Translations under genes and position numbers: made by a program
Shown: positions 5,202 through 28,880 of the stretch, in pieces
Position numbering within the stretch: the stretch's first letter is position 1
How the letters are laid out: each line of letters starts with the position of its first letter
Assembly (NCBI GenBank): GCA_020632335.1
Contig: JACKFV010000001.1
Coordinates: 210,001 to 242,000 of the forward strand
Origin: Candidatus Saccharimonadota bacterium
GTDB taxonomy: Bacteria; Patescibacteriota; Gracilibacteria; UBA4473
Direction of reading: 5' to 3'
DNA: 32,000 nucleotides
The notes under the pieces: generated by a model
Told to the model about the DNA's origin: nothing
The model's input: only the letters and a program-made list of their open reading frames with translations
Databases searched by the model: none

Positions 5202-5972
5202 TTATTGTCTCAGCGGGAGTATTTGTGCTTTACCTCCAGGGTAGGTTACCTTGGTATAGTCCCCTGGGAGAGCGATAATCTCTATGGGCCCATTAGAAGT
5301 TTCAATTTCTATCCGGGCTCCTTTCTCAAGAGATTTTAAAGTATTTTTTACCTTATCGACTGTTGCCTGGTTTAGTTCAACAGTCGAAACCTCGTAGCCA
5401 TTTTCAAATGCATTAAACAAGACATCACTAAGTCTTGTATGATTTGAAGTAGCTGCTATGGTTAGAGTTCTTAAGGGATCTCTTAAACGCTGAAATATAT
5501 TAAACGAACTAAGAAAACACTCAGCGAGTAGGACTCCTTCTTCGTTGTATATACTTGCTGTGGGCTCTACCCCATAGGTCTGGGAATAATGCCATTTCCC
5601 ATTATTACTGCGGATCGCCACGCCAGAGATCGGAAATCTTACACCGCTGTATTTTATTTCTACCCTCTTGGGTAGTAACGGTAAATTTTCTCGTTTTAAC
5701 TGGACATTTACCCAGTATTGAACGATTACATCCAATCCTTGATGGGATATAATCGGCTGCATCCAACGAGAAAACTCCTCTTGAGTTATGCTCTCTCGAA
5801 CACCAGCGAACAAGGCTCTCTCATGGGAATCCCAGATGGGATGTCTCTCATTAGCACTATTAGTAATGCTACCAAAATTTTTTGCAGCGTCATATGTTCC
5901 CGAGCTTCTGCAAGAAATAAGGTTAATAATCATGCCACCACATAGGATGGCGAAAAAGAATACTCTTTTCAT
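5202..5972 (-). CDS. Orphan lipoprotein in an AT-rich islet
   Basis: 256 aa. The signal peptide plus lipobox 'MKRVFFFAILCGGMIINLISC' fits L-I-S-C. I recognise no family. Hand-counted G+C is 23/60 and 25/60 in lines 5281-5340 and 5341-5400, against 37/60 in line 4981-5040. ATG verified. Confidence 0.6.
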   Translation of the reverse strand: MKRVFFFAILCGGMIINLISCRSSGTYDAAKNFGSITNSANERHPIWDSHERALFAGVRESITQEEFSRWMQPIISHQGLDVIVQYWVNVQLKRENLPLLPKRVEIKYSGVRFPISGVAIRSNNGKWHYSQTYGVEPTASIYNEEGVLLAECFLSSFNIFQRLRDPLRTLTIAATSNHTRLSDVLFNAFENGYEVSTVELNQATVDKVKNTLKSLEKGARIEIETSNGPIEIIALPGDYTKVTYPGGKAQILPLRQ

Positions 5973-6055
5973 TGTTGATATGGTTTTTTAGTGAAAAAAT
6001 AAGAGTCCTGCTACCCCGCCGCAGCCGAGTAGTATGGACGCTTACTCTTCACTTT

Positions 6056-6070
6056 TCGGTATCTTGAGTT
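6056..6070. repeat. Third copy of the islet-bounding repeat (TCGGTATCTTGAGTT)
   Basis: Perfect 15-nt inverted repeat of 5126-5140 (AACTCAAGATACCGA). It also shares the 11-nt direct repeat TATCTTGAGTT with 5175-5185. Confidence 0.7.
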
Positions 6071-6242
6071 ATAAAGGAACCCCAGAAGCAGCGGTATCCC
6101 TGCGCTTATGGTATATATAGTCTCTACCACAAATACTGCAAATAGTCAATATTTTTGTAGAATTTCCCCAGCGAGGAGCGCCATTTCCTTGACAGAAAGG
6201 CCCCGGGTTCTACTCTACCACTTGTATAAACGCCCGCGATTC

Positions 6243-6500
6243 ATGCCACTTATCCGATCTGCCATCAAACAAATGCGGCAAAACCGCACCCGTCGCCAGC
6301 GGAATCTCATCACCAAGCGACAGTATAAATCTCTGATGAAGCAGTACGAAACGCTGATAAAAGCCGGGGAGAAGGACAAGGCCGCGGCGCTCTACCCTCA
6401 GGTGCAGAAGTCACTCGACATGGCCGCGAAGAAGAACCTCCTCCACCCCAAGAACGCCGGGCACAAGAAATCACAACTGGCCAAGATGCTGGCCGCCTAA
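6243..6500 (+). CDS. rpsT: 30S ribosomal protein S20
   Basis: 'MPLIRSAIKQMRQNRTRRQRNLITKRQYKS...LLHPKNAGHKKSQLAKML' is an S20-type sequence. Homology begins at the internal ATG 6243, so the track ORF start 6108 is an AT-rich upstream extension. Confidence 0.9.
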   Translation: MPLIRSAIKQMRQNRTRRQRNLITKRQYKSLMKQYETLIKAGEKDKAAALYPQVQKSLDMAAKKNLLHPKNAGHKKSQLAKMLAA

Positions 6501-21055: not shown

Positions 21056-21751
21056 ATGGCGCTCATCGTGACCGAGAACCTGCACAAGAAGTATTTCTCC
21101 GGGCTGGAGACCGAACTCCACGTGCTTAGGGGCATCAACCTGACCATAGAGGCGGGGCAGAGCGTGGCGATCATGGGCCCCAGCGGGAGTGGGAAGAGCA
21201 CGCTCATGCACTTGCTGGGCTTCCTCGACACCGTGACGGAGGGCCGGTATTTCTTCGATGGAGAGGACGTGAGCCACTTCACCGAGGATGAGCTGGCCAG
21301 CATACGGAATACGCGCGTGGGGTTTGTCTTCCAGCAGTTTCATCTCCTCCCGCGCACCAGCGCCATCGAGAACGTGCAGCTACCGATGATCTACGCCGGG
21401 GTGAGCAGCGCTGAGCAAGTCCGTCGGGCCACCGAGGCACTGGAGGCCGTGGGGCTGGGAGACCGGCTGGACCACCTGCCCAACGAACTGAGCGGCGGGC
21501 AGCAGCAGCGGGTGAGCATAGCGCGAGCACTGGTGAATAACCCCAAGGTGCTGTTTGCCGATGAGCCGACGGGCAACCTAGACACACAGAGCAGCGAGGA
21601 AATCATGGAGATCTTCATGCAGCTGAACCGTGAGGGCAAGACGCTCATCATGGTGACGCACGAGCCGGACATAGCCCAGTACTGCGAGCGGGTCATCCAC
21701 CTGCGCGACGGGGTGATAGAGCGCGACCAGCGGCGAGCCCCCCGTGCCTAG
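21056..21751 (+). CDS. ABC transporter ATP-binding protein, MacB/LolD/FtsE-type
   Basis: 231 aa. Walker A 'GPSGSGKST', Q-loop 'FVFQQF', signature 'LSGGQQQRV' and 'LFADEPTGNLD' are present. ATG verified. Confidence 0.9.
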   Translation: MALIVTENLHKKYFSGLETELHVLRGINLTIEAGQSVAIMGPSGSGKSTLMHLLGFLDTVTEGRYFFDGEDVSHFTEDELASIRNTRVGFVFQQFHLLPRTSAIENVQLPMIYAGVSSAEQVRRATEALEAVGLGDRLDHLPNELSGGQQQRVSIARALVNNPKVLFADEPTGNLDTQSSEEIMEIFMQLNREGKTLIMVTHEPDIAQYCERVIHLRDGVIERDQRRAPRA

Positions 21752-22458
21752 CGCCCGAGATACAGCGAGCCGACTTTCGGGTCTGCGAGGAGAGAGGCGC
21801 CCGTGCCGGTGAGGGCATTACGCCCGAGCTCCAGCACATAGCCGCGGTCACTGATCTCCAGTGCTTTGGCGGCGTTCTGCTCGACCATGAGGATACTGGT
21901 GCCCTGGTCACGGATGCGCTGTATCTGCTGAAAGACCTCAGTGATGACCTTGGGCGCCAGGCCAATGCTCGGCTCGTCCAGCAGCAGCACCTCGGGGCTC
22001 AGCATCAGCCCCATACCCAGCGCCAGCATCTGCCGCTCTCCGCCGCTCAGCAGCCCCGCGGTGTGCCGTGCATAGGCCTGCAGCTGCGGGAAAAACGCCA
22101 TAATCTCCGCGTACTTCTGCTGTACTTCTGAGCGGTTGGTCATGGTGTAGGCGGCCATCTCGAGGTTCTCGGCCACAGTGAGGTCGGGGAAAATATTGAG
22201 CCCCTGTGTCACAAAGGCAATCCCAGAGCGGATGCGTGAGGCCACCGGGAGAGGGGTGAGGTCCCGCGAGCCGTGGTGCACGGTGCCGTGGCGGAGGCTA
22301 GTGAGGCCAAGAATGCTCTTCAGCAGGGTGCTCTTGCCCGCGCCGTTAGGGCCGATAATCGCAACAATCTCCCCCTCATGGAGGGTAATAGAGACCTCGT
22401 GGAGGATATCAGGGCCGTTGCCGTAGCCCGCCGTTACCGCTTCTACAGAGAGGATCAT
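21748..22458 (-). CDS. livF: Branched-chain amino acid ABC transporter ATPase LivF
   Basis: 236 aa. 'GPNGAGKSTLL', 'LSGGERQML' and 'LLLDEPSIGLAP' are present. It is the last gene of the livKHMGF order. ATG verified. Confidence 0.85.
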   Translation of the reverse strand: MILSVEAVTAGYGNGPDILHEVSITLHEGEIVAIIGPNGAGKSTLLKSILGLTSLRHGTVHHGSRDLTPLPVASRIRSGIAFVTQGLNIFPDLTVAENLEMAAYTMTNRSEVQQKYAEIMAFFPQLQAYARHTAGLLSGGERQMLALGMGLMLSPEVLLLDEPSIGLAPKVITEVFQQIQRIRDQGTSILMVEQNAAKALEISDRGYVLELGRNALTGTGASLLADPKVGSLYLGR

Positions 22459-22459
22459 G

Positions 22460-23197
22460 TTAGGCGCCTAAGTATGCTTCGAGGACTCGGGGGTCTGTCT
22501 GTACCTTCTCGGGGGTGTCTTGCATCAGGAATCTCCCATTCTCCATCACTACCACTTCGTCGGCGATGCGCATGAGGAAGGGCATGTGGTGCTCGATGAT
22601 GAGGAGGGTTTTGCCATCACGGTTCAGGCGGCGGATGAGGCGCTCCACCGTGCGCAGGAGGGTAGGGTTTACGCCCGCAGCGGGCTCGTCCAGGAGGATG
22701 AGATCAGCGTCCTGCAGCACACAGCGGAGGATCTCGACCAGTTTACTCTGGCCATAGCTCAGCTCTGCAGCGCTGTGGTCGAGGTAGTCTTGTAGCCCCA
22801 CCTCCTCTAGAAGGGCCGTGAGGCGCTCCAGGTGGAGGTCTTCATCTACCGGGGAGAAGCTGGACCACCAGCCGTCATAGGTGTGGCTGCAGGCCAGCAG
22901 GAGGTTCTCGCGCACGGTGAGGTTACGAAAAAGCCGTATCTGCTGGAAGGTCCGCGCTATGCCCTTGCGCACGATGCGGTGGGCTGGCACCCTCCGGAGG
23001 TCCTCGCCCTGGTAGAGGATCTGCCCACTCTCAGCCGGGACGAAGTGCGTGATGAGGTTAAACGCGGTAGTCTTGCCCGCGCCGTTGGGGCCGATGAGCC
23101 CCGTGATGGAGCCGGGCCGCACCGTGAAGCTCAGGCCGTCTACTGCCCGTACACCCCCGAAGGATTTGCTGAGGTTCTCGACAAGCAGGAGGGTCAT
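22460..23197 (-). CDS. livG: Branched-chain amino acid ABC transporter ATPase LivG
   Basis: 245 aa. 'LSKSFGGVRAVDGLSF', 'GPNGAGKTT', 'LSYGQSKLVE' and 'ILLDEPAAGVNP' are present. Its ATG overlaps the hicA stop (ATGA at 23194-23197). Confidence 0.85.
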   Translation of the reverse strand: MTLLLVENLSKSFGGVRAVDGLSFTVRPGSITGLIGPNGAGKTTAFNLITHFVPAESGQILYQGEDLRRVPAHRIVRKGIARTFQQIRLFRNLTVRENLLLACSHTYDGWWSSFSPVDEDLHLERLTALLEEVGLQDYLDHSAAELSYGQSKLVEILRCVLQDADLILLDEPAAGVNPTLLRTVERLIRRLNRDGKTLLIIEHHMPFLMRIADEVVVMENGRFLMQDTPEKVQTDPRVLEAYLGA

Positions 23198-23382
23198 GAT
23201 AGCGGGGGGACATCGAGTTGCTTACAGATGAGCCGTGCGGTCAGGTCTGCAATCTCTGTATGCCGTGGAACAACAGAGACGCTCCCATTGGTCCTATTTT
23301 GTACCTTCTCGTGCTTGGCGCCGCGCTGCAGGAGTATACAATTGTGCGCCTTGAGATGCATTACCAGTTGACGACGCTTCAT
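23194..23382 (-). CDS. hicA: HicA-family mRNA-interferase toxin
   Basis: 62 aa. 'MKRRQLVMHLKAHNCILLQRGAKHEKV...VSVVPRHTEIADLTARLICKQLDV' follows the HicA/YcfA pattern (K..ELxxxL, G-x-K/S-H, VPxHxxEI, ILKQ). ATG verified. Confidence 0.8.
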   Translation of the reverse strand: MKRRQLVMHLKAHNCILLQRGAKHEKVQNRTNGSVSVVPRHTEIADLTARLICKQLDVPPLS

Positions 23383-23600
23383 ACAGAAACCGTGCCAAAG
23401 AGTTCTTGTTCTATGGGACTATCGGTATCCCATTCAAACTGAGCACGGTTGCCACTCAGCATCATCTCGAGCGCCTCGGTGATGTTCTCGCGCACCTCTT
23501 CTAGTGTCTTGCCCTGGGTGATGACCCCTGGTACTTCTGGGATAGTAGCTACTATCCAACCATCTGAAGAGGTATAGGCCAGCGTAAGAGGAGTATGCAT
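23379..23600 (-). CDS. hicB: Short HicB/UPF0150-family antitoxin with no DNA-binding domain
   Basis: 73 aa from internal ATG 23600. 'SDGWIVATIPEVPGVITQGKTLEEVRENITEALEMML' matches the HicB N-terminal fold motif (PdLPGcxTqGeTleEa). Its stop overlaps the hicA ATG (ATGA at 23379-23382). Confidence 0.75.
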   Translation of the reverse strand: MHTPLTLAYTSSDGWIVATIPEVPGVITQGKTLEEVRENITEALEMMLSGNRAQFEWDTDSPIEQELFGTVSV

Positions 23601-23607
23601 GCGATGA

Positions 23608-24492
23608 TTATATGGAGGCCCTCCGGCGTGTAAAGAGCCACACCACTCCCCGAGGCGCAAAGAACATACAGCTGATGAGCAGCGCTGCGTAGAGCAGGTT
23701 GCGTGCGGGGCCGATGAGCGCGTCCGGGAAGCCCACAAAGCGCGGCACCTCCCCCAGCAGCAGCACGATAACCGTGCCCCCTATAGCGCCCGAGAAGCTC
23801 CCCTGGCCCCCTACAATGAGCATGAGCAGGAGGAAAATAATCTCTGGGAGTGCGAAAATGCTGGGGTCGAGGAAGAGCCGGTAGTGCGCGTAGAGCCCCC
23901 CTGCCACCGCTGCAAAGGCCGCACTGAGCGTCAGGCTCCACACCTGCGAGCGGAAGGTATCCTTCCCGAGGCCCTTGGCGGCGATCTCGTCATGCGCGAT
24001 GGCCCGCTGCAACCGGCCAAATGGTGAGCGAAACAGCCGCCACAGCACCCACTGGCAGGCGATGACTATCACCAAGTAGAGCGCCAGCACGGCCCAGGAG
24101 CTGCTGAACTCAACCCCTAAGATGCTCGGCTGGCTGATGCCCCGTATGCCCATGGGGCCGTTGGTGAGGGAGATCCAGTTAGTGGCCACCACGATGGCGA
24201 TCATGGCTGCCCCGAGGGTGGCGATAGCGAGGTAGTGGCCGCTCAGCCGGAGGGTCAGTAGCCCCAGCACCGCGGCAAATGCCCCCGCGATGAGCGCCCC
24301 GAGGAGGAGATTCAGGAGGAAGGGCGAGCCAAACTGCGTGCTGAGGATAGCCGCCGTGTACGCCCCCATGCCGTAGAAGATGATGTGCCCGAGGTTAAAG
24401 AGCCCGGTGAGACCAAAGCTGAGGTTATAGCTCTGGGTCAGCAGAGACCAGATCGTCATGAGAATCGCCAGCGACAGGAGGTATTCGAGCAT
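23608..24492 (-). CDS. livM: Branched-chain amino acid ABC transporter permease LivM
   Basis: 'NLSFGLTGLFNLGHIIFYGMGAYTAA' is the LivM/LivH-family core. Start set at ATG 24492 ('MLEYLLSL'), because the longer track ORF overlaps the preceding AT-rich gene. Confidence 0.8.
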   Translation of the reverse strand: MLEYLLSLAILMTIWSLLTQSYNLSFGLTGLFNLGHIIFYGMGAYTAAILSTQFGSPFLLNLLLGALIAGAFAAVLGLLTLRLSGHYLAIATLGAAMIAIVVATNWISLTNGPMGIRGISQPSILGVEFSSSWAVLALYLVIVIACQWVLWRLFRSPFGRLQRAIAHDEIAAKGLGKDTFRSQVWSLTLSAAFAAVAGGLYAHYRLFLDPSIFALPEIIFLLLMLIVGGQGSFSGAIGGTVIVLLLGEVPRFVGFPDALIGPARNLLYAALLISCMFFAPRGVVWLFTRRRASI

Positions 24493-24497
24493 GAGGT

Positions 24498-24878
24498 CTA
24501 AATACGCCCAATAAAAAAGCCCAAAATAGCCCCGATAATACCAATGAGTGTGGGAATAAGTTTGTCTCCACGCACAAAGTTGACCCACTGTACTTTTCGA
24601 AAATATTCAAATCCGTGCAATTTTTCTTGTTGTTGCTGCTTAGCTTGTTCTTCTAATTTTGATAAATGTTTATAACCGGCATCCGTTATCATTAATATGC
24701 CGCTAGCATCGGATAGGAAGGGATGAAACGAAACATACCCATTCTTCTTCATTTTAGCAGTCTCTGTATACAAAGTGGCATTACTGGCCTCAATATATTC
24801 AAAAATATCAACTTTTTGGTGTTCTTTTCTGTCTTTGAGAGCTTGGAGAACCTGGTATTCGATGGTAGAAGAGGTCAT
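24498..24878 (-). CDS. AT-rich orphan gene: winged-helix-like N-domain, Gln/Glu-rich linker and C-terminal TM anchor
   Basis: 126 aa. 'YQVLQALKD...IFEYI...KKNGYVSF...GILMITDAGYKHL', then 'EEQAKQQQQEK', then TM 'IPTLIGIIGAILGFFIG'. It starts 9 nt after the livH stop and ends 5 nt before the livM ATG. G+C is 18/60 and 24/60 in lines 24601-24660 and 24661-24720. Confidence 0.55.
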   Translation of the reverse strand: MTSSTIEYQVLQALKDRKEHQKVDIFEYIEASNATLYTETAKMKKNGYVSFHPFLSDASGILMITDAGYKHLSKLEEQAKQQQQEKLHGFEYFRKVQWVNFVRGDKLIPTLIGIIGAILGFFIGRI

Positions 24879-24887
24879 GGGAATCTC

Positions 24888-25775
24888 TTAGTGTCTAATA
24901 GCAGTAAAGCGGGTACCAAAGAGCCCCGCGGGCTTGACCAGCAGCATGAGAATCAGTACCACAAAGGGAATAGCCGCGGTGAAACCACTAGGGATAACCC
25001 CATACCCCACCAGCAGGCTCTGCAAAATGCCGATGATATAAGCCCCCACAATGGCCCCCGGCACCGACCCCACCGCCCCGAGTATCAGCGCCGCAAAGGC
25101 CATAATGCCGATCTGCACGCCCATGGTGGGCTCCAGGTTCTGCTCATAGCCGAGGAAGACCCCCGCCACCGCGGCCAGTACCGTCCCGATGCCGAAGATC
25201 CACCGCATGGCGCTGTCCGCACTCAGCCCAAACATACTCGCCAGGCTGCGGTTACTACTGACGGCCCGCAGCATCTTCCCCGGCCGTGTGTAGGTGAGGA
25301 AGCTCTGCAGCCCCAGCATCAGCAGTAGCGAGGTCACCAGCGCGATAATCTGCACCGGGGTGGCCAGCAAATGCCCCGACAGCAGCGCCATGTTGGGCGC
25401 CGCGCCATCGCTAATGGTGAGGATACCAGCCCCAAAGCCGATGAGAATAAGCGCCTGGATGCCGATGCTCAGCCCAATAGAAACCACCAGCGGGATGAGC
25501 GCATCGCGGTCGCGCAGGGGGCGGAAGAAGACGCGCTCTATGAGGAGGCCCACCAGCAGCGTCACCCCGAGCGTCAGCAGCAGCGCGGGCACTACCGGCC
25601 AGCCCCAGTACTTGTGAGAGACCATAAAGCTATAGGCGCCCACCGCCACCAGCTCTCCGTGAGCGAACTGGAGGAAGCCCCCCACGCCGTAGATGAGAGT
25701 GAGCCCCAGCGCCACAAGGGCGATGAGGCTCCCGGTCACGATGCCATTCCAGAGCAGCTGGAGGAGAAGATCCAT
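24888..25775 (-). CDS. livH: Branched-chain amino acid ABC transporter permease LivH
   Basis: 295 aa. 'GVGGFLQFAHGELVAVGAY' is the family core. Its ATG overlaps the livK stop by 1 nt (TAATG). Confidence 0.85.
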   Translation of the reverse strand: MDLLLQLLWNGIVTGSLIALVALGLTLIYGVGGFLQFAHGELVAVGAYSFMVSHKYWGWPVVPALLLTLGVTLLVGLLIERVFFRPLRDRDALIPLVVSIGLSIGIQALILIGFGAGILTISDGAAPNMALLSGHLLATPVQIIALVTSLLLMLGLQSFLTYTRPGKMLRAVSSNRSLASMFGLSADSAMRWIFGIGTVLAAVAGVFLGYEQNLEPTMGVQIGIMAFAALILGAVGSVPGAIVGAYIIGILQSLLVGYGVIPSGFTAAIPFVVLILMLLVKPAGLFGTRFTAIRH

Positions 25776-26950
25776 TATTCAGCAGGGACAAAATCAGTGC
25801 CGTTGAAGACCAGCAGCGTATGCGCGAGGTTGGTGACGTCTCCGTTCTCGTCAAAGGCCATATCGCCCGAGATACCCGCATATACCGGCATGGCGTAGAG
25901 TGAATCGCGGATGGCAGCGGTATCGCTTGGGTTGGGGATGTGGTTCAGGATATTCCCGAGAATATGCATGCCGTCATAGGCCACCCCGGCGTAGTTCGCG
26001 ATCTCAATAGGGCCGTACTGGGCCTCATACCGGGTGACGAAGTCTTGGAATGCTGGCGTGTCTACCCCGAGAAATGCAGCGCCCGCCACGTCACGATCTC
26101 CGAGGAAGTCACGGAATGCGAGCACATACTTCCCATTATCAGTAGCGATAAACTCGTTCCCCAGAATGGGCAGCATGACCTGCTGTTCTTGCAGTTGCTT
26201 CATGAGGAGCTCCATCTTCGCGGGGGTCTGGGGGTTGAGGAAGAGGGCATCGGCGTCGGCGTTTTTGATTTTCGTGATGCGGGTTTTGAAGTCTGATTCC
26301 GTACTGAGGAAGGTCTCTTCCATCACCTCCCCGGCAAAGTACTCCTGGAATACGCGCGCCACGGCCACCGCGTAGTCGGTTTGTTCGGTCAGCATGGCGA
26401 CTTTCTGGTAGCCTTTTTCATTGGCATACTCGGCCATGATCTTGCCCTGGATGCTATCAGAGGGGAAATTCCGGAAAACAAAGTCCCCGGCCTCGGTGAC
26501 ATCGGGGCTGCTGGACATAGGCGAGAAGAGGATCACCTGCGCTTTCTCGGTTATAGGGGCGGCGGCGAGCGTCTCTCCGCTACACCCCCCACCAAAGATC
26601 ACCGGCACTTTGTCGATATTCACGAGCTTCTGCGCGGCGGCGGAGGCGTCTTTCGGGTTACACTTGCCGTCTTCCCACCGTACCTCCAGCGGGCGGTCAT
26701 GGATGCCCCCAGCGGCGTTGATGTCCTCTACCGCCAGCATGGCTGCCTGCTGTACGGCCGTCCCGTAGATGGCTCCATCACCGGTGAGCGGTAAGACCCC
26801 CCCAATAACAAAGGGCTCTACCGTAGGCGCAGGAGCCTCTGCTGTGGGGGTAGTAGATGCCGTGGTACTGGTGCCGGTGGGCGCCGTGACCTGGCTGCCG
26901 CAGCCGGCCAAGAGCAGCACTGCGAACGCTGAGAATGCCGTGTACTTCAT
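25775..26950 (-). CDS. livK: Branched-chain amino acid ABC transporter substrate-binding lipoprotein (LivK/LivJ type)
   Basis: 391 aa with lipoprotein signal 'AFAVLLLAGC'. 'IGGVLPLTGDGAIYG' and 'INAAGGI' are the type-I periplasmic-binding (Leu/Ile/Val) blocks. ATG verified. Confidence 0.85.
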   Translation of the reverse strand: MKYTAFSAFAVLLLAGCGSQVTAPTGTSTTASTTPTAEAPAPTVEPFVIGGVLPLTGDGAIYGTAVQQAAMLAVEDINAAGGIHDRPLEVRWEDGKCNPKDASAAAQKLVNIDKVPVIFGGGCSGETLAAAPITEKAQVILFSPMSSSPDVTEAGDFVFRNFPSDSIQGKIMAEYANEKGYQKVAMLTEQTDYAVAVARVFQEYFAGEVMEETFLSTESDFKTRITKIKNADADALFLNPQTPAKMELLMKQLQEQQVMLPILGNEFIATDNGKYVLAFRDFLGDRDVAGAAFLGVDTPAFQDFVTRYEAQYGPIEIANYAGVAYDGMHILGNILNHIPNPSDTAAIRDSLYAMPVYAGISGDMAFDENGDVTNLAHTLLVFNGTDFVPAE

Positions 26951-27019
26951 CAGAGGGGGAGGGTAAGGAATACCCCCACCCTACTAGGCTGAGCGGGGGT
27001 GTCAATGGGCCCTCTCCGG

Positions 27020-27367
27020 CTAGTGCTGGCGCAGCAGAGGCGCGTGGGGCAAGATATACACCAGGTGCACGGTAGTGAAGATGAGCAGAAAGAGGCTCAC
27101 CAGTACCGCCACCACGGCGCCATTATGCAGGGCGTTTATCTCCAGCATGCGGGTGGCCATAGCGTGGTTGGCGTCTAGCGGCGTGATGCCCAGTGTCTCT
27201 AGCTTCTCGGCCATGGCGGTGTCGTTCACGCTCTGGTAGATGATGGTCTGGATCTCATTCACATAGAGGGTTTTATCCGTTGCGCGCAGCTGCAGCGCCA
27301 CCCCTAGCCCCATGGCCAAGAAGGACACGAGCAGCAGCAGGCGGGTAATACGAGGAACGGCAGTCAT
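27020..27367 (-). CDS. Small two-TM hypothetical membrane protein
   Basis: Start taken at the internal ATG 27367 ('MTAVPRITRLLLLVSFLAMGLGVAL...VVAVLVSLFLLIFTTVHLVYIL'). The longer track ORF would overlap the gatB start region. I recognise no family. Confidence 0.4.
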   Translation of the reverse strand: MTAVPRITRLLLLVSFLAMGLGVALQLRATDKTLYVNEIQTIIYQSVNDTAMAEKLETLGITPLDANHAMATRMLEINALHNGAVVAVLVSLFLLIFTTVHLVYILPHAPLLRQH

Positions 27368-27423
27368 GGTGAGGGGGTGCAGTAGCCCCACCATAGACCA
27401 AACCCTGAGAGAGCGCAAGCCCC

Positions 27424-27451
27424 TTGCCAGGAATGCTCTGCGGAGTAGGCT
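27424..27451 (+). promoter_or_regulatory. Candidate promoter placing the TSS at the gatB ATG
   Basis: TTGCCA (27424-27429)-N16-TAGGCT (27446-27451), then 7 nt, then ATG 27459. Confidence 0.4.
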
Positions 27452-27458
27452 CCCCCAC

Positions 27459-28880
27459 ATGCAGCCCCTCGACCTAGAAGTCATCATCGGCCTGGAGATA
27501 CACGCGCAGCTGAATACCGCGTCGAAGCTCTTCTGTGGGTGTGATAATGATGCCTTTGGCGCTGAGCCCAACACGCGCGTCTGCCCGGTGTGCATGGGCT
27601 TCCCCGGTATGCTGCCGGTGCTGAATGCCCGCGCGCTGGAGAAAGGTCTGCAGGTGGGGGCGGCGCTGGGGTGCCAACTGCAGCCGTATAGTAAGTTTGA
27701 CCGGAAGAACTACTTCTACCCAGACCTGCCGTGCGGGTATCAGATCAGCCAGTATGATGAGCCCATCGCCGAGCACGGGCATCTCTCTTACCCGGTAGAC
27801 GAGCAGACTGTGCAGAGCGCTGGCATCACCCGGGTGCACCTGGAGATGGACGCCGGCAAGCTCACCCACACGGCCAGTAAGACGCTCTGCGACTACAACC
27901 GCAGTGGTACGCCGCTGGTGGAGATCGTCACCGAGCCAGACCTGCGCAGCGCCACCGAGGCCAGGGAATTTGCGAAGATGGTGCAGCGGACGCTCCGGGC
28001 TACGGGCGCCAGTGACGCGGATATGGAGAAGGGTATGATGCGCTTTGACGCCAGTGTGAGCCTGCGCCCCAGGGGGGACGAGCAGCTCTACCCGCGGGCG
28101 GAGATCAAGAATCTCAATAGCTTCACCAGCCTCTACAAAGCCCTGCAGTATGAGGTCATGCGGCAGCGGCAGCTCTGGGAGGCCGGGACTCCTCCCACAC
28201 AAGAGATCACGGTAGGGTGGAGAGACGATGAGGAGCGCACGCACCTGCTGCGGGAGAAGGAATCTGCGACGGACTACCGCTACTTCCCCGAGCCGGATCT
28301 GCCCCCCATTACCCTCAGCCAGGAGGCCATAGCAGCGGTGGAGAGCACTCTGCCCATGCTGCCCATGGCGGTGTATACCCGGCTGCGGGCCGAGCACATA
28401 CCGCATGAGGAGGCGCTGAGTATCATTGATGATCCTCGGACGGGGGATTTCCTCAGTGCTGCGGTAGCGGCTGGCGCGCCGTACAAGAAGGCCGTGAATG
28501 TCCTGCTGAGCGTGCTGGGCGCGCATGCAGACTGGCAGGATTCGCTGGTGACCCCTGCGCAGGTGGCGGACGGCATAGCCCTGGTGGAGGCGGGGAGGCT
28601 CAGCAGCAGTGGGCTCCGGCAGGTGCTGGAGGCCGCGATGACTACCCCGGGCAGCGCAGAGAAGATTATGCAGCAGCTGGGCGTGGAGCTCAGCCAAGAC
28701 ACCGGGCAGCTGGAGGCGTGGGTACAGGAGGCCCTAGACGGCAACCCGCAGAGCGTAGCTGACTACCGGGAGGGGAAGGAGAAGGCGCTCCAGTACCTGG
28801 TGGGGCAGGTGATGCAGCGTAGCCGCGGGCAGGCCAATCCGCCACAGGTGATGCAGCTGCTGCGGGAGAAACTCGGCTAG
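27459..28880 (+). CDS. gatB: Asp/Glu-tRNA amidotransferase subunit B
   Basis: 'LEVIIGLEIHAQLNT', 'CPVCMGFPGMLPVLN', 'RVHLEMDAGK' and a C-terminal YqeY-like tail are present. Homology starts at the internal ATG 27459, not at the track start 27312. Confidence 0.93.
   Translation: MQPLDLEVIIGLEIHAQLNTASKLFCGCDNDAFGAEPNTRVCPVCMGFPGMLPVLNARALEKGLQVGAALGCQLQPYSKFDRKNYFYPDLPCGYQISQYDEPIAEHGHLSYPVDEQTVQSAGITRVHLEMDAGKLTHTASKTLCDYNRSGTPLVEIVTEPDLRSATEAREFAKMVQRTLRATGASDADMEKGMMRFDASVSLRPRGDEQLYPRAEIKNLNSFTSLYKALQYEVMRQRQLWEAGTPPTQEITVGWRDDEERTHLLREKESATDYRYFPEPDLPPITLSQEAIAAVESTLPMLPMAVYTRLRAEHIPHEEALSIIDDPRTGDFLSAAVAAGAPYKKAVNVLLSVLGAHADWQDSLVTPAQVADGIALVEAGRLSSSGLRQVLEAAMTTPGSAEKIMQQLGVELSQDTGQLEAWVQEALDGNPQSVADYREGKEKALQYLVGQVMQRSRGQANPPQVMQLLREKLG

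What the first reader, a model, noticed from the sequence alone, without database searches (positions are those of the whole stretch)
23194..23607. hicB-hicA toxin-antitoxin pair translationally coupled inside the liv operon, with a short DNA-binding-less HicB
**Position.** A HicB-like gene (23379-23600, 73 aa) and a HicA-like gene (23194-23382, 62 aa) lie between livM and livG on the same strand.

**Coupling.**
- hicB starts 7 nt after the livM stop.
- The hicB stop overlaps the hicA start (ATGA at 23379-23382).
- The hicA stop overlaps the livG start (ATGA at 23194-23197).

**Composition.** It is intermediate: 33/60 and 29/60 G+C in lines 23281-23340 and 23341-23400.

**Departures from the E. 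coli K-12 prototype.** There, hicA precedes hicB and HicB carries a C-terminal DNA-binding domain for autoregulation.
- Here the gene order is antitoxin first.
- The HicB is only the N-terminal toxin-neutralising fold (UPF0150-like).

**Consequence.** With no visible operator-binding domain and no room for its own promoter, expression of the pair and of the downstream ATPase genes livG/livF appears slaved to liv transcription and translation. That wiring links an mRNA interferase to amino-acid uptake. It could serve as an addiction module for the operon or as a nutrient-linked growth switch.
Basis: partly seen in the sequence, partly recalled or inferred. Interest (0 to 1): 0.62.

Follow-up and report, generated by a model that had tools for sequence, protein, structure and literature searches.

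The report
Toxin-antitoxin cassette inside liv operon
A small "poison and antidote" gene pair (hicB-hicA) of an already described compact class has landed between the permease and ATPase genes of an amino-acid transporter operon in a tiny uncultivated bacterium, and it appears to have its own strong promoter, so it is an ordinary selfish or defence cassette in a tight spot, not a nutrient-controlled switch.

Summary
hicB (23379-23600, 73 aa) and hicA (23194-23382, 62 aa) lie between livM and livG on the minus strand, with the stated 7-nt gap and two ATGA overlaps.

Both family assignments hold. HicA has the HicA fold, and its G21 and H24 align to E. coli G20 and H23. HicB has the partial RNase H fold and no DNA-binding domain.

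The pair is a compositionally foreign, lineage-specific insertion. GC3 is 0.50-0.57 against 0.79-0.83 for its neighbours livM and livG. It is absent from the livM-livG junction in 4 family relatives and about 35 metagenomic liv loci.

The "departures from E. coli" are not departures. They define Class 2 hicBA of Gerdes 2024, one of the two most common classes, and 23 of 25 related loci in this bacterial class share the layout.

The key inference, "no room for its own promoter", fails. TTTACA-N16-TATAAT ends 6 nt before the hicB ATG, and the livM stop codon lies inside the -10 box. This is one of only 15 sites in the genome matching at least 11 of 12 consensus positions. It fits the genome's leaderless rule: 117 first-ATG starts have TAnnnT exactly 6 nt upstream, against about 10 at other offsets.

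This scan has already found hicBA cassettes inside operons of other CPR-type genomes. No transcript data could be obtained. Interest is low to moderate.

The parts
23607..23634 (-). Predicted leaderless sigma-70-type promoter of hicB. The -35 TTTACA lies at 23634-23629, inside the livM codons L-F-T. A 16-nt spacer follows and contains the palindrome GGAGG-G-CCTCC. The -10 TATAAT lies at 23612-23607 and contains the livM stop codon TAA. Six nt (CATCGC) then lead to the hicB ATG.
   Evidence: It is the best promoter-like site in 21500-27500, at 11/12. Only 15 sites in the whole 703-kb genome reach 11/12. The -10-to-ATG spacing of 6 nt matches a sharp genome-wide peak: 58 of 465 promoter-like sites, and 117 of 854 first-ATG starts against about 10 at other offsets.
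23379..23600 (-). hicB, a 73-aa antitoxin consisting of the partial RNase H (UPF0150) fold only, with no DNA-binding domain.
   Evidence: Pfam UPF0150 35.6 bits (cut-off 27.3) and HicB_lk_antitox 25.7 bits. PHROG 497 'HicB-like', E=8e-8. [quoted passage not shown] The best PDB folds are the B. pseudomallei HicB N-domain 6g1c/6g1n, 4p78_A, 6hpb_B and 2dsy.
23194..23382 (-). hicA, a 62-aa mRNA-interferase-type toxin with conserved G21, H24, P39-R40-H41 and C53.
   Evidence: Pfam HicA_toxin 23.7 bits, below the cut-off of 27. However, all 40 sequences of alignment A1 (this protein and 39 homologues) match HicA_toxin, best E=1.8e-14. The profile aligns to E. coli HicA 6hpb_A with G21/H24 on G20/H23. 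The model has pLDDT 95.8 and an alpha-beta-beta-beta-alpha topology. The top PDB folds are HicA 1whz, 6g26_E, 6hpb_A and 4p78_C. PHROG 353 'toxin', E=7e-9.
23608..24492 (-). livM, the permease gene upstream of the insert. It is intact. Its last codons and stop codon overlap the predicted hicB promoter.
   Evidence: BPD_transp_2 E=3e-40. It is 58-67% identical to livM of relatives, and the alignments start near residue 33 of the long ORF, which favours the ATG at 24492. The C-terminal tail is comparable in length and charge to those of relatives.
22460..23197 (-). livG, the ABC ATPase gene downstream of the insert. It is intact. Its ATG overlaps the hicA stop codon (ATGA), and no Shine-Dalgarno-like sequence lies upstream.
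   Evidence: ABC_tran E=2e-33 and BCA_ABC_TP_C. It is 57-72% identical to livG of four family relatives. In two of those relatives the same ATGA overlap joins livM directly to livG.
21748..22458 (-). livF, the second ABC ATPase gene and last gene of the unit. It starts 1 nt after the livG stop.
   Evidence: ABC_tran E=2e-31. It is 59-70% identical to livF of relatives. The scan found no terminator-like site between hicB and the end of livG; the one it found on this strand (22218-22200) lies inside the livF coding sequence.

Best explanation
This is a Class 2 hicBA type II toxin-antitoxin cassette: a short HicB without a DNA-binding domain, followed by and overlapping HicA. It was acquired horizontally and inserted precisely at the livM/livG junction of the liv ABC-transporter operon of a small-genome (703 kb) CPR-type bacterium.

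**Inferred mode of action (from the family).** HicA is a ribosome-independent mRNA-cleaving toxin. HicB holds it inactive by binding it with its partial RNase H domain.

**Expression.** The cassette is most likely transcribed from its own strong leaderless promoter, TTTACA-N16-TATAAT-N6-ATG. This promoter sits in the last codons and the stop codon of livM. Read-through from the liv promoter probably adds to this.

**Downstream genes.**
- No terminator-like site was found in hicBA or between it and livG.
- hicB/hicA and hicA/livG overlap by ATGA.
- No ribosome-binding site is visible before hicA or livG.
- Therefore hicA, and then livG-livF, are probably translated by termination-reinitiation. 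hicA has taken the coupling role that livM plays in relatives.

**Biological role.** The pair is best seen as a selfish or defence-type (possibly anti-phage) module. It is tolerated at this site because it preserves livGF expression. It is not a device that ties growth to amino-acid uptake.

**Shown:** gene identities, folds, conserved residues, the insertion, the foreign composition, the promoter-like site and its fit to the genome-wide rule.

**Inferred:** promoter activity, translational coupling, toxicity and neutralisation, biological role.
For: **Identity**
- The HicA fold model has pLDDT 95.8 and its top PDB matches are all HicA structures.
- The HicB fold model has HicB N-domains as top matches.
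- Profile alignment places G21 and H24 on E. coli HicA G20 and H23. That H23 is the catalytic residue is established knowledge of E. coli HicA (6HPB), not a tool result.

**Class**
- Gerdes 2024 defines Class 2 as hicBA with a HicB of 63-103 codons lacking a DBD, with genes usually overlapping.
- 23 of 25 related loci in the same bacterial class show hicB before hicA. Those read in detail carry 67-74-aa HicBs, mostly with a 4-nt overlap.

**Insertion**
- livM and livG overlap by ATGA in G005 and G003.
- They are 6 nt apart in G012 and about 90 nt apart in G006.
- About 35 metagenomic liv loci have gaps of 0-180 nt and no hicA or hicB hit.
- GC3 is 0.50 for hicB and 0.57 for hicA. The liv genes have 0.72-0.83, and the genome's long ORFs average 0.73 +/- 0.09.

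**Promoter**
- The site matches 11 of 12 consensus positions.
- It is one of 15 such sites in 1.4 Mb of searched strands.
- The 6-nt spacing peak is 58 against about 5, and 117 against about 10 in a test that does not depend on the -35 box.
- Nine host leaderless promoters are likewise embedded in an upstream gene's 3' end.
- No other liv gene start has such a site.

**Precedent for coupling to a host gene**
- In G198 (L046) the hicA stop overlaps the start of a K+ channel gene by ATGA.
- In G005 (L023) hicA abuts a gene I read by eye as folD.
- In G249 (L030) the gap to the next gene is 5 nt.
Against: - Promoter activity is therefore inferred from sequence statistics only.
- The -35 element and the spacer lie in what looks like native livM coding sequence. 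The promoter could be partly fortuitous.
- HicA alone scores below Pfam's gathering threshold (23.7 against 27 bits).
- No close homologues exist; the best is about 49% identical. Purifying selection on this particular copy could not be measured.
- No member of Class 2 has been tested experimentally. Toxicity and neutralisation are extrapolated from Classes 3 and 4.
- How a HicB without a DNA-binding domain would be regulated is unknown.
Confidence: 0.72

Rival explanations
1. The pair has no promoter or operator of its own and is expressed only as part of the liv mRNA. Toxin and antitoxin synthesis, and livG/livF synthesis, then follow amino-acid-transporter expression. The module would act as a nutrient-linked growth switch or as an addiction module for the operon.
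For: - The cassette lies inside the operon on the same strand with minimal gaps.
- HicB has no DNA-binding domain.
- No terminator-like site separates livM from hicB, so liv read-through transcription is expected.
Against: - A near-consensus leaderless promoter sits exactly where this genome places its promoters.
- The same cassette type occurs next to unrelated genes in relatives: a K+ channel gene and genes I read by eye as folD and argG. That argues against a liv-specific function.
- Four relatives, and the metagenomic liv loci in which livM lies directly upstream of livG, lack the pair at that junction.
Confidence: 0.12
2. This is a domesticated or decaying cassette. The toxin is no longer active. 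The two small ORFs persist mainly because their promoter and the hicA termination event are now needed to transcribe and translationally couple livG-livF. They would serve as a spacer or bridge, not as a working toxin-antitoxin system.
For: - livG has no visible ribosome-binding site, and its ATG overlaps the hicA stop.
- The cassette's GC content lies between that of the AT-rich insert at 24498-24878 and the host genome. That pattern may reflect a longer residence and partial amelioration.
- It is the only HicA in the genome, and no PIN, ParE/RelE or PemK toxins were found in the 89%-complete assembly.
Against: - All family-wide conserved residues are intact: G21, H24, P39-R40-H41 and C53.
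- Both ORFs are full length relative to homologues.
- Both model confidently as complete domains.
Confidence: 0.12
3. The two ORFs are chance reading frames in an unusually long livM-livG spacer and are not genes.
For: - HicA alone is below Pfam's threshold.
- The word-indexed homologue search found no hit for HicA.
Against: - 394 homologues were found in the exhaustive search.
- Both proteins have confident folds that match solved HicA and HicB structures.
- The hicB-hicA overlap architecture is conserved in relatives.
Confidence: 0.01

Closest known systems
Class 2 hicBA modules (Gerdes 2024, mBio 15:e03293-23; PMC10865869)
   Same: - Gene order is hicB then hicA.
- HicB is 73 aa, within the class range of 63-103 codons, and has no recognisable DNA-binding domain.
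- HicA is 62 aa, within the typical range of 60-85.
- The genes overlap by 4 nt, which suggests translational coupling.
   Different: - Nothing differs in the module itself.
- The location is particular. The cassette sits between the permease and ATPase genes of a liv operon. Its predicted leaderless promoter overlaps the livM stop codon, and the hicA stop overlaps the livG start.
E. coli K-12 HicAB (PDB 6HPB) and Burkholderia pseudomallei HicAB (PDB 6G26, 6G1N, 6G1C); Classes 3 and 4
   Same: [quoted passage not shown]
- HicB has the same partial RNase H toxin-binding domain.
   Different: - The gene order is reversed.
- HicB lacks the C-terminal HTH or RHH domain that represses the classical operons, so autoregulation by operator binding cannot work in the same way.
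- Sequence identity is only about 15-30%.
Stand-alone UPF0150 proteins of Thermus thermophilus (TTHA1013 1WV8, TTHA0281 2DSY, TTHA1756 2YZT)
   Same: They are single-domain proteins of about 70-87 aa with the partial RNase H fold. They give weak sequence matches and fold matches.
   Different: Sequence similarity is low (E 0.08-0.3). Their partners and functions were not examined here.
hicBA cassettes at operon junctions in other CPR-type genomes, noted earlier in this scan (ribosomal str/S10 operons, ATP synthase operon, men operon)
   Same: A small hicB-hicA cassette is wedged between same-strand housekeeping genes of a reduced genome, and the surrounding operon stays intact.
   Different: - Here there is no displaced copy of the upstream gene's tail and no target duplication.
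- The host operon is a liv transporter.
- Those notes are AI notes on other DNA, and I did not re-check them.

Membership tests
HicA toxin (Pfam PF07927) | Score above the Pfam gathering threshold | tested here: inconclusive
   The protein alone scores 23.7 bits against a cut-off of 27, E=5e-5. All 40 sequences of alignment A1 (this protein and 39 homologues) match HicA_toxin at E<=0.01, best E=1.8e-14. PHROG 353 'toxin', E=7e-9.
HicA toxin (Pfam PF07927) | [quoted passage not shown] | tested here: met
   The AlphaFold model has pLDDT 95.8 with elements H3-12, E15-20, E24-29, E35-39 and H46-55. Foldseek's top hits are 1whz, 6g26_E, 6hpb_A and 4p78_C, with TM 0.67-0.82 and probability 0.97-1.00.
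HicA toxin (Pfam PF07927) | Conserved catalytic His preceded by Gly in the beta1-beta2 region (H23 in E. coli HicA) | tested here: met
   The profile alignment to 6hpb_A places G21 and H24 on G20 and H23. G21 and H24 are conserved in at least 90% of the 40-sequence alignment. That H23 is the catalytic residue is established knowledge and was not tested here.
HicA toxin (Pfam PF07927) | RNase toxicity that the cognate HicB neutralises | not testable with these tools
   This needs expression and rescue assays.
HicB / UPF0150 antitoxin (Pfam PF21748, PF15919) | Score above the Pfam gathering threshold | tested here: met
   UPF0150 scores 35.6 bits against 27.3. HicB_lk_antitox scores 25.7 against 27, just below. 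PHROG 497 'HicB-like', E=8e-8.
HicB / UPF0150 antitoxin (Pfam PF21748, PF15919) | Partial RNase H fold (beta-beta-beta-alpha-beta) | tested here: met
   The model has pLDDT 85 with elements E2-12, E15-19, E27-30, H33-47, E54-58 and E66-72. The top Foldseek hits are 6g1c_V (E=4.6e-4), 6g1n, 3kwr, 6g26_B, 4p78_A and 6hpb_B. The model rests on only two sequences, and only one of the five models was confident.
Classical HicB (Classes 3/4, E. coli and B. pseudomallei type) | C-terminal HTH or RHH DNA-binding domain | tested here: not met
   The protein ends after the RNase H-like domain at 73 aa. There is no HTH or RHH Pfam hit, and the model's C-terminal part is beta-strand only.
Class 2 hicBA (Gerdes 2024) | hicB upstream of hicA, HicB of 63-103 codons without a DBD, genes closely linked or overlapping | tested here: met
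   hicB is 73 codons and hicA 62 codons, with an ATGA overlap at 23382-23379. The class definition was read.
Autoregulated type II TA operon | Own promoter with an operator bound by the antitoxin | tested here: inconclusive
   A promoter-like site is present and fits the genome's rule. An 11-nt palindrome, GGAGG-G-CCTCC, lies in the spacer but is not statistically unusual. HicB has no DNA-binding domain.

The most novel reading that the evidence does not exclude
In reduced CPR-type genomes, promoter-bearing Class 2 hicBA cassettes may insert preferentially at stop/start junctions inside or just ahead of host operons and become wired into them. In this case the -10 box of the cassette's leaderless promoter supplies the stop codon of livM. 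The hicA stop codon takes over the translational coupling to livG that livM provides in relatives. The toxin gene would then be an obligatory transcriptional and translational feeder of the transporter's two ATPase genes, which would make the cassette hard to lose without disabling the operon. That would be a positional form of addiction that needs no DNA-binding antitoxin.
Probability: 0.2. Interest if true: 0.55.

Novelty: new member of a known kind. Interest (0 to 1): 0.3.

Why it matters
**What is ordinary.** The module itself belongs to a class that is already catalogued.

**What is mildly useful.**
1. It is a clean natural example of a DBD-less Class 2 hicBA with a recognisable promoter and no obvious operator. 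Gerdes 2024 raises the regulation of this class as an open question and states that no member has been tested.
2. It shows how a toxin-antitoxin cassette can be accommodated inside a functional transporter operon of a 0.7-Mb genome without breaking it. The cassette brings or creates a promoter in the 3' end of the upstream gene, and it re-creates the ATGA coupling to the downstream gene.
3. It adds to a recurring pattern. Small hicBA cassettes sit at operon junctions in CPR-type genomes, and other genes are inserted in the liv operon both here and in a relative.

It does not provide evidence for a link between an mRNA interferase and amino-acid uptake.

Tried and rejected
- **Word-indexed homologue search.** It found no hit for HicA. 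For HicB it found only the protein itself and one 58%-identical fragment. The exhaustive search was needed.
- **The search for related loci with the HicA alignment.** I used the genome search instead.
- **Metagenome scan with LivG.** I was looking for closer relatives to date the insertion. The best hit was only 65% identical, so no dating was possible.
- **Footprints of the insertion mechanism.**
  - There is no target-site duplication and no inverted repeat at the borders.
  - There is no displaced relic of the livM tail or the livG head; alignment scores are at shuffle level.
  - A perfect 13-nt direct repeat, GGGGCCGATGAGC (23087 and 23707), lies inside livG and livM. At both sites it encodes LIGP. 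I read it as codon-level coincidence.
- **Operator or RNA structure at the junction.** The spacer palindrome is not enriched. The RNA fold of 23560-23680 has a z-score of 0.09.
- **Defence-system profiles (PADLOC).** Neither protein gave a hit.
- **Literature on hicAB or leaderless mRNAs in CPR/Patescibacteria.** The two searches listed nothing that, from title and abstract, deals with either topic; I opened one of the papers (PMC12641178) and its mentions of leaderless mRNA were not relevant.
Full report
**1. The observation**

The minus strand of 21748-26950 carries a liv-type branched-chain amino-acid ABC transporter operon. Its genes, in order of transcription, are:

| Gene | Coordinates | Pfam evidence |
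|---|---|---|
| Binding protein | 25775-26950 | Peripla_BP_6 |
| livH | 24888-25775 | BPD_transp_2 |
| livM | 23608-24492 | BPD_transp_2 |
| livG | 22460-23197 | ABC_tran + BCA_ABC_TP_C |
| livF | 21748-22458 | ABC_tran |

- hicB is at 23379-23600 (73 aa). Its ATG lies 7 nt after the livM stop TAA (23610-23608).
- hicA is at 23194-23382 (62 aa).
- ATGA overlaps lie at 23382-23379 (hicB/hicA) and 23197-23194 (hicA/livG).
- The G+C counts of 33/60 and 29/60 are exact.

**2. What the two proteins are**

*HicB*
- It passes Pfam's UPF0150 threshold (35.6 bits against 27.3). It nearly passes HicB_lk_antitox (25.7 against 27).
- It matches PHROG 497 'HicB-like'.
- It gives weak sequence matches to solved HicB structures and to the Thermus stand-alone UPF0150 proteins.
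- Its model (pLDDT 85) is beta-beta-beta-alpha-beta-beta.
- The best structural neighbours are the N-terminal domain of B. pseudomallei HicB (6g1c, 6g1n), Y. pestis HicB3 and E. coli HicB.
- The protein has no sequence or helices left over for an HTH or RHH domain.

*HicA*
- Alone, it scores below Pfam's threshold (23.7 against 27 bits).
- An exhaustive search found 394 representative homologues, mostly 61-65 aa and up to 49% identical among the closest.
- All 40 sequences of the alignment (the window protein and 39 homologues) hit HicA_toxin, best E=1.8e-14.
- The profile of that alignment finds E. coli HicA (6hpb_A). It aligns G21 and H24 to G20 and H23.
- G21, H24, P39-R40-H41 and C53 are at least 90% conserved in the subfamily.
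- Six of its eight best PDB matches are HicA toxins, including all of the top six.

Neither is met.

**3. The 'departures from E. coli' define a known class**

Gerdes (2024, mBio; PMC10865869) sorts HicA contexts into 14 classes.
- The genes of this class usually overlap.
- Classes 1 and 2 are described as the most prevalent.
- They have not been tested experimentally, and their regulation is an open question.

The window's pair fits every point of that definition.

I surveyed 301 genomes of the same bacterial class with the HicA profile.
- 22 genomes carry the subfamily.
- In 23 of 25 loci other than the window's own, a HicB-like ORF lies directly upstream of hicA. In the loci I read in detail the HicB is 67-74 aa, mostly with a 4-nt overlap.

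**4. It is a lineage-specific, foreign insertion**

Four relatives of the same family have an orthologous liv operon, with LivG 57-72% identical. Their livM-livG junctions are as follows:

| Relative | livM-livG junction |
|---|---|
| G005 | ATGA overlap |
| G003 | ATGA overlap |
| G012 | 6 nt apart |
| G006 | about 90-nt palindromic spacer |

- None of the four has hicA or hicB at that junction.
- Of 80 metagenomic liv loci, about 35 have livM directly upstream of livG. In these, the distance from the end of the LivM alignment to the livG start is 0-180 nt. None gave a HicA or HicB hit.
- GC3 is 0.50 for hicB and 0.57 for hicA. The neighbours livM and livG have 0.83 and 0.80. The genome's long ORFs average 0.73 +/- 0.09, with a 5th percentile of 0.58.
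- I found no target duplication, no terminal inverted repeats and no displaced relic of the livM tail or the livG head. The insertion mechanism is therefore not visible.
- livM, livG and livF are intact.

**5. The pair appears to have its own promoter**

Directly upstream of hicB lies TTTACA-N16-TATAAT, followed by 6 nt (CATCGC) and the ATG (23634-23607).
- This is an 11/12 match to the sigma-70 consensus and the best site in 6 kb.
- Only 15 sites in the whole genome, both strands, reach 11/12. The hexamer TATAAT itself occurs only 74 times.

The spacing matters more than the match. This genome places its promoters so that transcription would start on the start codon.
- Of 465 promoter-like sites (at least 9/12), 58 have the ATG or GTG of an ORF of at least 100 aa exactly 6 nt after the -10 box. 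Most other distances have about 5, and 7 nt has 18.
- A second test ignores the -35 box. Of 854 first-ATG starts of long ORFs, 117 have TAnnnT exactly 6 nt upstream. Other offsets have about 10.
- Nine of the 66 best such host promoters lie inside the 3' end of the preceding same-strand gene, with gaps of -4 to 30 nt. The hicB arrangement therefore has native precedents.
- No other gene start in the liv operon has such a site.
- The livM stop codon TAA lies inside the -10 hexamer, and the -35 lies in the L-F-T codons of livM. The livM tail resembles those of relatives in length and charge. I cannot say whether the promoter came with the cassette or arose in place.
- The spacer palindrome GGAGG-G-CCTCC is not statistically unusual. 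The region has no significant RNA structure.

**6. How it most likely works**

- *Shown:* a complete Class 2 hicBA cassette sits at an operon junction and has a promoter-like site that fits the genome's rule. The scan found no terminator-like site in hicBA or before livG; the one it found on this strand (22218-22200) lies inside the livF coding sequence.
- *Inferred, transcription:* hicB-hicA-livG-livF is transcribed as a leaderless unit, in addition to read-through from the liv promoter.
- *Inferred, translation:* hicA and livG lack visible ribosome-binding sequences. They are probably translated by termination-reinitiation at the two ATGA overlaps. hicA thereby inherits the coupling role that livM has in G005 and G003.
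- *Inferred, function:* by homology, HicA is an mRNA interferase held inactive by HicB. The role is selfish maintenance and/or phage defence, as Gerdes proposes for the family.

Several results argue against a liv-specific function.
- In G198 (L046), the same kind of cassette is fused by the same ATGA overlap to a K+ channel gene.
- In G005 (L023), it abuts a gene I read by eye as folD.
- In L043, it follows a gene I read by eye as argG, with a 20-nt gap.
- Earlier notes of this scan report hicBA cassettes inside ribosomal-protein, ATP synthase and menaquinone operons of other CPR-type genomes. I did not re-check those notes.
- Within this genome it is the only HicA and the only UPF0150 protein. 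I found no PIN, ParE/RelE or PemK toxins in the 89%-complete assembly.

**7. Verdict**

- The family assignment is correct.
- The architecture is a known class.
- The premise that expression is slaved to liv transcription is contradicted by sequence statistics, although not by experiment.
- The remaining points of interest are the tidy way the cassette is wired into a working transporter operon, and its value as a test case for how DBD-less hicBA modules are expressed.

Noticed in passing
window 24498-24878 (minus strand): A second, much more AT-rich insert lies in the same liv operon, between livH and livM. It has GC 38% and GC3 0.36, and encodes a 126-aa ORF. The ORF gives a weak winged-helix hit (HTH_34, 20 bits), and I read its C-terminus by eye as a hydrophobic membrane anchor. 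Only 9 nt and 5 nt separate it from its neighbours. An earlier agent of this scan has already followed it up.
   Followed up: partly
whole genome G000 (window = C1:210001-242000): Leaderless transcription appears to be the rule in this genome. TAnnnT lies exactly 6 nt before the first ATG of 117 of 854 long ORFs, against about 10 at other offsets. A TTG(C/A)CA-like -35 box typically lies 16-17 nt upstream. Nine such promoters are embedded in the 3' end of the preceding gene.
   Followed up: yes
L015 (G005:C22) 1356-2993 and 5948-6295: The orthologous liv operon of a low-GC relative carries two other unrelated same-strand inserts. One is a 115-aa ORF that I read by eye as four-helix-bundle-like (like the 23S rRNA intervening-sequence proteins); it lies between the binding-protein gene and livH. 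The other is a 545-aa Cys-rich protein between livG and livF. In G012 and G003 a binding-protein paralogue sits between livH and livM. liv junctions seem to be permissive insertion points in this family.
   Followed up: partly
L003 (G006:C20) about 2040-2125: In the closest relative (LivG 72% identical), the livM-livG junction holds a spacer of about 90 nt made of AACTTAAGAA-type direct and inverted repeats. Other relatives have an overlap or only 6 nt at this point. It could be a small palindromic element or a scar.
   Followed up: no
L046 (G198:C51), reverse strand, oriented coordinates 1133-2519: In a same-family genome, a hicB-hicA pair with an ATGA overlap is in turn fused by a second ATGA overlap to a K+ channel gene carrying the TVGYGD filter motif. 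This mirrors the hicA/livG junction of the window. A TAAAAT box lies 7 nt before the hicB ATG.
   Followed up: partly
window 23087-23099 and 23707-23719: A perfect 13-nt direct repeat, GGGGCCGATGAGC, lies 620 nt apart, inside livG (Walker A region, 'LIGPNGAGKT') and inside livM ('ALIGPAR'). It brackets the cassette together with about 100 nt of each neighbouring gene. I read it as a codon-level coincidence, although it is a potential deletion substrate.
   Followed up: partly
window 26951-27010 (minus strand, upstream of the binding-protein gene): The head of the liv operon has TTGACA-N16-TAGGGT followed by a 27-nt leader rich in GGGGG and CCCTCCCC. Unlike hicB and many other genes of this genome, it would not be leaderless.
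   Followed up: no
whole genome G000: Profile searches found no PIN, ParE/RelE or PemK/MazF toxin genes, and only this one HicA and one UPF0150 protein, in the 703-kb, 89%-complete assembly. The hicBA pair may be the only classical type II toxin-antitoxin module of this organism.
   Followed up: partly
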